Assembly: GCF_054482595.1 (NCBI RefSeq)
Contig: NZ_CM137008.1
Direction: 5' to 3' (one strand)
Length of the DNA: 64,000 nucleotides
Shown here piece after piece: positions 32,401-33,231 of the stretch. The position numbers and the translations under genes are program-made. A model generated the notes under the pieces. It saw nothing but the letters and a program-made list of their open reading frames with translations. It did no database searches and was not told the origin of the DNA. Positions within the stretch are counted from its first letter, which is position 1; the number at the start of each line of letters is the position of its first letter.

Positions 32401-33231
32401 CTACGCGGAGCGAGACGCTGTCGCCCCTGCACGTGGTGGCAGAGCAAACGCCACCAGCGCCGGGATGAGATAAATAAACCAGACGGCGACTTCGCTGACG
32501 CTCGGCGCTTCCTGATAACCAAAAATACCTTCCATTAGCGTGCCGAACAGCGAGTGAGTTGAGAGCACCGCGCTCATATCGAAGGCGATTTCCTGAAAGT
32601 GGTTCCACAATCCGGCTTCATGAAATGCGCGAATGGCACCTGCAGCCAGTCCTGCGGCGACGAAGAGAATAAATAGGCTGGTCCATTTAAAAAATGCACC
32701 AAGATTGAGGCGAATACCGCCCCAGTAGAGCAGGAAGCCGAGCACCACGGCAGTAGCAAGACCGAGCATTGCACCCAGCGGCGGCCAGATCCCGACATCT
32801 TGTTGAAATGCCGCCAGCAGGAAAAAGACCGACTCCAGGCCTTCCCTTGCAACGGCAAAAAAGACCATCATCACCAGCGCCCAGCCATGATGATTTCCAC
32901 GCTGCAATGCGCTATCGACTGCCTGTTCCAGTTGCACTTTGACGTTGCGCGACACTTTGCGCATCCAGAAAACCATCCAGGTAAGGATCACCACGGCGAT
33001 CACCGCCACGATACCTTCAAACAGTTCCTGCTCTTTTTGCGGAAATTCGCCGGTGGTTTCGTTAATGAAGATACCCAAGCCCAGGCACAACGCAGCGGCA
33101 AGCAACACGCCAATCCACATCACACCAATCCATCGGCCTCGCTGGGTACGCTTAAGATAGCTGGCAATCAAACTGACAATCAGCGCGGCTTCAAGCCCTT
33201 CGCGCAACATAATGAGAAATGGAACAAACAT
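32401..33231 (-). CDS. efeU: ferrous iron permease EfeU (intact reading frame)
   Basis: 276-aa uninterrupted ORF from MFVPFLIMLREGLEAAL with REGLE motifs; K-12 copy is recalled as frameshifted. Confidence 0.85.
   Translation of the reverse strand: MFVPFLIMLREGLEAALIVSLIASYLKRTQRGRWIGVMWIGVLLAAALCLGLGIFINETTGEFPQKEQELFEGIVAVIAVVILTWMVFWMRKVSRNVKVQLEQAVDSALQRGNHHGWALVMMVFFAVAREGLESVFFLLAAFQQDVGIWPPLGAMLGLATAVVLGFLLYWGGIRLNLGAFFKWTSLFILFVAAGLAAGAIRAFHEAGLWNHFQEIAFDMSAVLSTHSLFGTLMEGIFGYQEAPSVSEVAVWFIYLIPALVAFALPPRAGATASRSA

What the first reader, a model, noticed from the sequence alone, without database searches (positions are those of the whole stretch)
32401..33231. Intact efeU reading frame
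The EfeU permease ORF is uninterrupted (276 aa), whereas the K-12 copy is recalled as frameshifted. Together with a Fur-box-like sequence upstream this implies a functional EfeUOB ferrous-iron uptake system in this strain.
Basis: partly seen in the sequence, partly recalled or inferred. Interest (0 to 1): 0.25.

Follow-up and report, generated by a model that had tools for sequence, protein, structure and literature searches.

The report
Intact efeU iron permease gene
This is the normal, uninterrupted efeU gene of the well-known EfeUOB iron-uptake operon of E. coli, with a protein identical to the O157:H7 copy reported as functional; the broken copy in laboratory strain K-12 is the exception, so the finding is correct but ordinary.

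Summary
An uninterrupted 276-codon ORF lies on the minus strand at 32401-33231. It is EfeU (NCBIfam equivalog 331 bits, cutoff 255; Pfam FTR1 300 bits). Its protein is 100% identical to O157:H7 EfeU, the copy the literature reports as functional. Both REGLE motifs and seven hydrophobic segments are present. K-12 lacks one G in codon 36, as published. There is no compensating frameshift pair: the alignment with O157:H7 has no gaps, and all 20 nucleotide differences are synonymous.

The Fur-box-like site is real. It lies at 33291-33309, matches the consensus at 15 of 19 positions, is the best match in the 64-kb window, and is identical in K-12 and O157:H7. efeO and efeB follow intact, each 99% identical to the references.

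The intact state is the rule, not the exception. The K-12 allele occurs in only 368 of 5,417 complete E. coli genomes, and those sampled were K-12 laboratory derivatives.

Function is inferred, not shown. One caveat is a rare efeB allele carrying P12L and E376V.

This is already known (Grosse 2006; Cao 2007), so interest is low.

Seen in passing next to the gene:
- An unstudied 447-aa protein (ECs1262 orthologue) with a PipB2-like N-terminal effector fold and uncurated repeats shared with SET-domain proteins.
- An IS2 element inserted in cbpA.

The parts
32401..33231 (-). efeU coding sequence (276 codons plus TAG stop), inner-membrane Ftr1-type iron permease
   Evidence: ORF list and sequence. 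NCBIfam EfeU 331 bits and TIGR00145 352 bits. Pfam FTR1 300 bits. 100% amino-acid identity to O157:H7 EfeU WP_000497942.1.
33190..33204 (-). Codons for the first REGLE (REXXE) motif, residues 10-14
   Evidence: Motif search on the translation.
32833..32847 (-). Codons for the second REGLE (REXXE) motif, residues 129-133
   Evidence: Motif search on the translation.
33125..33126 (-). GG dinucleotide (ORF nt 106-107, codon 36) where K-12 has a single G; the site of the K-12 frameshift, intact here
   Evidence: Three-way DNA alignment. K-12 translation stops after 36 aa. Literature statement.
33291..33309 (-). Fur-box-like 19-mer CGTAATGATAATCGCTATC, 60-78 nt upstream of the ATG
   Evidence: 15 of 19 matches to the consensus, the best match in the 64-kb window on both strands. 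Identical in K-12 and O157:H7. efeU/efeO are reported in Fur iModulons, and a Fur box is predicted upstream of efeU in ExPEC.
33269..33283 (+). CpxR-box-like tandem pentamers GCAAA-N5-GTAAA (antisense to efeU), between the Fur box and the start codon
   Evidence: 1 mismatch to GTAAA-N5-GTAAA. The number of such matches in the window (5) equals the chance expectation (4.9), so only its position is suggestive. CpxAR regulation of efeU is reported in the title of Cao 2007 and in RegulonDB lists.
33298..33325 (-). Candidate sigma-70 promoter (inference only): -35 TTGTAT (33325-33320), 16-nt spacer, -10 GATAAT (33303-33298), overlapped by the Fur box
   Evidence: Read directly from the sequence. 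The tool's stricter consensus scan reported no promoter in 29800-34500.
31216..32343 (-). efeO coding sequence (375 aa): signal peptide, cupredoxin-like domain, M75/imelysin domain with HRLE (HxxE) at residues 217-220
   Evidence: NCBIfam EfeO 772 and 479 bits. Pfam Cupredoxin_1 and Peptidase_M75. 372/375 identity to O157:H7 and 373/375 to K-12. Motif position.
29939..31210 (-). efeB coding sequence (423 aa): Tat signal (RRR at residues 14-16) and DyP-type peroxidase/deferrochelatase; D235, H329 and R347 present; rare P12L and E376V
   Evidence: TIGR01412 616 bits. Pfam Dyp_perox_N and Dyp_perox_C. 418/423 identity to O157:H7 and to K-12. PDB 2Y4F, 2Y4D and 3O72 matches. Residue positions.

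Best explanation
The window carries the ordinary, ancestral form of the efeUOB operon on its minus strand: efeU at 32401-33231, efeO at 31216-32343 and efeB at 29939-31210.

EfeU is a seven-helix Ftr1-type inner-membrane iron permease with two REGLE motifs. EfeO (cupredoxin plus M75 domains) and the Tat-exported haem peroxidase EfeB work in the periplasm. According to the published model for E. coli O157:H7, Bacillus and yeast Ftr1p/Fet3p, ferrous iron is handled or oxidised outside the membrane and passed to EfeU for import, mainly at low pH.

Expression is expected to be repressed by Fe-Fur through the box at 33291-33309 and modulated by CpxAR.

Shown here: the intact frame, protein identity with the reference reported as functional, the motifs, the operon structure, and the presence and conservation of the Fur box. 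Inferred: expression, regulation and transport activity in this strain.

The K-12 frameshift is a mutation specific to the laboratory lineage, and this strain simply lacks it.
For: - The ORF is intact and matches the family above curated cut-offs.
- The alignment with O157:H7 efeU has no gaps. The single indel is K-12's missing G in codon 36.
- The protein is 276/276 identical to O157:H7 EfeU.
- All 20 nucleotide differences from O157:H7, and all 17 from the frame-corrected K-12 gene, are synonymous. This is the pattern expected under purifying selection.
- REGLE occurs at residues 10-14 and 129-133, and there are seven hydrophobic segments.
- efeO and efeB are intact with their domains, signal sequences and key residues.
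- The genes are tightly spaced: 57 nt between efeU and efeO, and 5 nt between efeO and efeB.
- The Fur box is the best match in the window and is conserved in K-12 and O157:H7.
- The exact K-12 allele occurs in 368 of 5,417 genomes. The rest span 81 nt against the 80-nt K-12 query, meaning they are undeleted.
- The literature states that K-12 efeU is cryptic and that O157:H7 EfeUOB is functional, Fur-repressed and low-pH active.
Against: - No expression or transport data exist for this strain.
- efeB differs from both references at P12L, directly before the twin-arginine motif, and at E376V. Solved homologues have E or D at position 376.
- The exact local sequence around codon 376 occurs in only 19 of 5,426 genomes.
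- The sequence more than about 134 nt upstream of the ATG differs from K-12 because a 2.5-kb island lies there. O157:H7 has the same island, so this is unlikely to matter.
- The simple promoter scan found no consensus promoter.
Confidence: 0.9

Rival explanations
1. All three reading frames are intact, but the system is impaired in this lineage. The rare EfeB allele could disturb Tat export (P12L beside the twin-arginine motif) or folding and activity (E376V).
For: Both substitutions are absent from K-12 and O157:H7. The exact 80-mer around codon 376 is found in only 19 genomes. Position 376 is E or D in the solved homologues that were aligned.
Against: The RRR motif, D235, H329 and R347 are all intact. 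Neither changed residue is a known catalytic or motif residue (my own knowledge of DyP enzymes). efeU in the same operon shows only synonymous change, which argues that selection on the operon continues.
Confidence: 0.07
2. The operon works, but its main physiological role is to extract iron from haem in the periplasm, with EfeB acting as a deferrochelatase and EfeU importing the released iron. On this view free ferrous-iron uptake at low pH is not the main role.
For: PMC3577903 reports that O157:H7 EfeUOB promotes iron release from haem in the periplasm and its transport into the cell. It also reports that the preferred iron source of EfeUOB systems is undetermined. PDB entries label homologues 'deferrochelatase'.
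Against: Cao 2007 and Grosse 2006 describe Fe2+ uptake (cited). The two roles are not mutually exclusive, and sequence alone cannot separate them.
Confidence: 0.25
3. The ORF is a chance open frame or a silent relic unrelated to iron transport.
For: None found.
Against: Family HMM scores lie far above the curated cut-offs. The protein is identical to one annotated as EfeU in 5,417 genomes. All substitutions are synonymous.
Confidence: 0.01

Closest known systems
E. coli O157:H7 EfeUOB (YcdNOB), Cao et al. 2007 Mol Microbiol 65:857 (pmid 17627767)
   Same: Same three genes in the same order. EfeU is 100% identical, and EfeO and EfeB are 99% identical. The Fur box and the upstream region are the same, including the 2.5-kb island beyond about -134.
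   Different: 20 synonymous differences in efeU (19 in codons plus TAG instead of TAA as the stop codon). Three substitutions in EfeO and five in EfeB, including P12L and E376V, which K-12 also lacks.
E. coli K-12 efeU pseudogene (efeU_1/efeU_2, b4490)
   Same: Same locus between putP and efeO. The proximal 134 nt of the promoter region are nearly identical and the Fur box is identical. The frame-corrected K-12 gene would encode the same protein.
   Different: K-12 lacks one G in codon 36, giving a stop after 36 residues. K-12 also lacks the 2.5-kb island upstream.
Yeast Ftr1p/Fet3p oxidase-dependent iron transporter (OFeT family)
   Same: EfeU matches the FTR1 family profile over its full length and has the two REXXE motifs and seven predicted helices.
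   Different: The partner proteins are EfeO (cupredoxin plus M75) and a DyP peroxidase, not a multicopper oxidase.
Bacillus subtilis YwbLMN (EfeUOB) and Staphylococcus aureus FepABC
   Same: Tripartite, Fur-repressed operons that encode an Ftr1-like permease, an M75 protein and a Tat-exported DyP peroxidase.
   Different: FepA has only the M75 domain and lacks the cupredoxin domain. These are Gram-positive envelope systems. Sequence relationships to them were not measured here.

Membership tests
EfeU / FTR1 (OFeT) iron permease | Full-length match to the family profile above the curated cut-off | tested here: met
   NCBIfam NF041756 EfeU 331.2 bits (cutoff 255). TIGR00145 351.7 bits (cutoff 303.8). 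Pfam PF03239 300.3 bits (cutoff 25.3).
EfeU / FTR1 (OFeT) iron permease | Two REXXE (REGLE) motifs | tested here: met
   REGLE at residues 10-14 and 129-133.
EfeU / FTR1 (OFeT) iron permease | Seven transmembrane segments | tested here: met
   A Kyte-Doolittle 19-residue scan gives seven separate hydrophobic segments, after merging the overlapping peaks at 175-193 and 185-203. The method is crude. The published topology is seven TM segments.
EfeU / FTR1 (OFeT) iron permease | Uninterrupted frame colinear with a reference reported as functional | tested here: met
   No gaps against O157:H7 efeU, and 276/276 amino-acid identity.
EfeU / FTR1 (OFeT) iron permease | Iron transport activity | not testable with these tools
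   Needs uptake or growth assays.
EfeUOB tripartite operon | efeO downstream, with cupredoxin and M75 domains and an HxxE site | tested here: met
   NCBIfam EfeO, Pfam Cupredoxin_1 and Peptidase_M75, and HRLE at residue 217.
EfeUOB tripartite operon | efeB downstream, encoding a Tat-exported DyP peroxidase with a distal Asp and Arg and a proximal His | tested here: met
   TIGR01412 616 bits. RRR at residues 14-16. D235, H329 and R347 present. The identity of the key residues rests on my knowledge of the EfeB structure papers, not on a tool result.
EfeUOB tripartite operon | Fur box in the promoter region | tested here: met
   15 of 19 matches to the consensus, the best in the window, conserved in K-12 and O157:H7. 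Fur binding itself was not tested.
EfeUOB tripartite operon | CpxAR control and acid induction | tested here: inconclusive
   A CpxR-like GCAAA-N5-GTAAA lies at 33269-33283, but the number of such matches in the window equals the chance expectation. Regulation cannot be tested in silico.
K-12-type cryptic efeU pseudogene | Single-base deletion in codon 36 | tested here: not met
   The window has GG where K-12 has G. The frame is open for 276 codons.

The most novel reading that the evidence does not exclude
EfeUOB in this lineage is altered rather than merely intact. Two features could change the export, activity or regulation of the system compared with the characterised O157:H7 and corrected K-12 versions. 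One is the rare efeB allele: P12L directly before the twin-arginine motif, and E376V at a position that is acidic in solved homologues, with the local sequence shared by at most 19 of 5,426 genomes. The other is the ECs1262-type island that replaces the K-12 sequence from about 134 nt upstream of the start codon.
Probability: 0.06. Interest if true: 0.2.

Novelty: already known. Interest (0 to 1): 0.05.

Why it matters
It matters little beyond correct annotation. The result says this strain, a close relative of the urinary isolate XH990, very probably has the acid-favoured EfeUOB iron-uptake route that K-12 lacks. That is the normal condition for E. coli, and it was described in 2006-2007. It is a useful reminder that K-12 is the outlier, so 'differs from K-12' is not in itself a discovery.

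Tried and rejected
- Compensating frameshift pair: rejected. The alignment has no gap against O157:H7 and a single gap against K-12.
- Loss of REGLE motifs: rejected.
- Promoter consensus scan of 29800-34500: no site at the tool's thresholds. The -35/-10 pair I name is therefore inference only.
- CpxR consensus search: 5 matches against 4.9 expected by chance, so it is not evidence on its own.
- PDB sequence search with EfeU: no solved relative.
- Cao 2007: not held in the paper library. Its content is cited only through its title and through papers that cite it. The published transcription start and CpxR sites could not be checked.
- The neighbouring 447-aa ORF gave no match in several searches: NCBIfam, Pfam above threshold and PADLOC, tblastn against phage records, and PDB by sequence.
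- The afdb50 fold library was unavailable.
- Rfam found nothing in the 1.17-kb AT-rich gap upstream of efeU.

Full report
**Observation.** The window has a minus-strand ORF at 32401..33240. The ATG at 33231 gives the 276-aa product annotated in RefSeq. An AAGGGTGG purine-rich stretch lies just upstream of that ATG. The product matches the NCBIfam EfeU equivalog (331 bits, cutoff 255), TIGR00145 (352 bits) and Pfam FTR1 (300 bits) over its full length. It did not state that the gene is on the minus strand.

**Comparison with K-12 and a reference reported as functional.** A megablast of the gene and its upstream region against 5,426 complete E. coli genomes found it in 5,417. I fetched three loci:
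- the K-12 (BW25113) locus, where RefSeq marks efeU as a frameshifted pseudogene;
- the O157:H7 locus;
- the 100%-identical XH990 locus.

The three-way alignment has a single indel. K-12 has one G where the window and O157:H7 have GG at ORF nt 106-107, which is window 33126-33125. The K-12 frame stops after 36 residues. [quoted passage not shown]

The window's protein is 276/276 identical to O157:H7 EfeU. All 20 nucleotide differences from O157:H7, and all 17 from the frame-corrected K-12 gene, are synonymous. There is no compensating frameshift pair. REGLE motifs lie at residues 10-14 and 129-133, and a hydropathy scan gives seven hydrophobic segments. This matches the published seven-TM description of the 276-aa protein.

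**How unusual is an intact efeU?** I used an 80-nt K-12 query centred on the deletion. An exact match (at least 99% identity) occurred in 368 of 5,417 genomes, and the examples listed are K-12 derivatives (ER1709, BW25113, J53). The other 5,049 fall in the 95-99% identity band. Those listed align with an 81-nt span, meaning they carry the extra G. An intact frame at this site is the norm.

**The rest of the system.**
- efeO (31216-32343, minus strand, 375 aa) starts 57 nt after the efeU stop codon. It has Cupredoxin_1 and Peptidase_M75 domains and an HRLE site at residue 217. It is 372/375 identical to the O157:H7 protein and 373/375 to the K-12 protein.
- efeB (29939-31210, minus strand, 423 aa) starts 5 nt after efeO. 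It matches TIGR01412 (616 bits). It has RRR at residues 14-16 and D235, H329 and R347. It is 418/423 identical to both references and nearly identical to PDB entries 2Y4F, 2Y4D and 3O72.
- Two EfeB substitutions are absent from both references: P12L, directly before the Tat motif, and E376V. The exact 80-mer around codon 376 occurs in only 19 genomes. The two more distant solved homologues that were aligned have E or D at that position. I treat this as a minor caveat, not as evidence of loss of function.

**Regulatory region.** The 19-mer CGTAATGATAATCGCTATC (33309-33291, sense strand) matches the Fur consensus at 15 of 19 positions. That is the top score on either strand of the whole window, and the site is identical in K-12 and O157:H7. 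Three published sources agree with Fur control:
- a Fur box predicted upstream of efeU in an ExPEC strain;
- efeU and efeO placed in a Fur iModulon;
- the statement that these operons are Fur-repressed.

A CpxR-like GCAAA-N5-GTAAA lies at 33269-33283, but such matches are no more frequent in the window than expected by chance. The consensus promoter scan found nothing. A weak -35 TTGTAT / -10 GATAAT pair overlapped by the Fur box is my own reading of the sequence. Homology with K-12 ends about 134 nt upstream of the ATG. Beyond that point lies a 2.5-kb island that O157:H7 also carries.

**Mechanism.** Shown here: an intact, selectively maintained efeUOB operon with all family-defining sequence features and a conserved Fur box. 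Inferred from the literature:
- The operon is repressed by Fe-Fur and is active at low pH.
- EfeO and EfeB act in the periplasm, oxidising or handling iron, or extracting it from haem.
- EfeU imports the iron.

Whether free Fe2+ or haem iron is the main substrate is unsettled in the literature and cannot be decided from sequence.

**Novelty.** None. The K-12 frameshift and the functional non-K-12 alleles were published in 2006-2007 and are repeated in reviews and genome papers.

**Things seen in passing.**
1. *The 447-aa ORF at 34413-35756 (+).*
   - It lies in the island between efeU and putP and is the orthologue of Sakai ECs_1262.
   - It is annotated 'hypothetical' everywhere.
   - Its island is present in 645 of 5,426 E. 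coli genomes.
   - The open literature mentions it only as a SNP-typing locus.
   - An exhaustive HMMER scan of 1.84 billion representative proteins found only 50 relatives.
   - It has an N-terminal domain, a disordered linker and three helical repeats of about 62 aa each.
   - Relatives carry 1-10 copies of the repeat. Several of them are fused to SET methyltransferase domains, in Salmonella bongori, S. enterica subsp. indica, Pantoea and Paraburkholderia.
   - It is a candidate secreted effector. This is unproven.
2. *Relationship to XH990.* The window is colinear with XH990 and differs by seven SNPs plus a 1,331-bp IS2 element with a 5-bp duplication. The IS2 is inserted in cbpA at 53171-54501.

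Noticed in passing
[not shown]
   Followed up: partly
window 33241-34412: 1.17 kb of AT-rich DNA (33-40% GC) between efeU and the 447-aa ORF. It has no ORF longer than 88 aa and no Rfam match, which is an unusually long non-coding stretch for E. coli. Its function, if any, is unknown.
   Followed up: partly
window 29939-31210 (-), codons 12 and 376: EfeB carries P12L (directly before the twin-arginine motif) and E376V, both absent from K-12 and O157:H7. The exact local sequence around codon 376 occurs in only 19 of 5,426 genomes. Solved homologues have E or D at that position.
   Followed up: partly
window 53171-54501: A 1,331-bp IS2 element inserted with a 5-bp target duplication inside cbpA (curved DNA-binding protein). 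Its TnpB ORF lies at 53182-54087 (-) and scores 710 bits to the IS2 TnpB model. CbpA is left truncated after residue 138. The insertion is absent from the otherwise near-identical strain XH990, which differs by 7 SNPs over the first 53 kb of the window.
   Followed up: yes
window 28535-28728 (+): An Rfam match to Ysr251 (Yersinia antisense sRNA family, 189 bits against a gathering score of 100). It lies antisense to the 3' part of phoH. It may simply reflect conservation of the phoH coding sequence.
   Followed up: no
window 55381-55459 (+): An Rfam match to naRNA4 (nucleoid-associated non-coding RNA 4, 82.5 bits against a gathering score of 59.5).
   Followed up: no
window 1-18600: A cluster of genes that I do not recall at this locus in K-12 (not checked here), named by the XH990 annotation. 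It comprises a two-partner secretion pair (ShlB/FhaC-family transporter at 2082-3701 and a 1,270-aa filamentous-haemagglutinin-domain protein at 3790-7602); an adjacent ACP, FabZ-like, SDR and AcpS gene set at 68-2066; and a chaperone-usher fimbrial operon at 9660-15618.
   Followed up: no
window 28530-29594 (-): The phoH ORF is open for 354 codons. PGAP annotates 262 aa (28530-29318) in XH990, whereas the Sakai record annotates the long 354-aa form. The two annotations choose different start codons.
   Followed up: no
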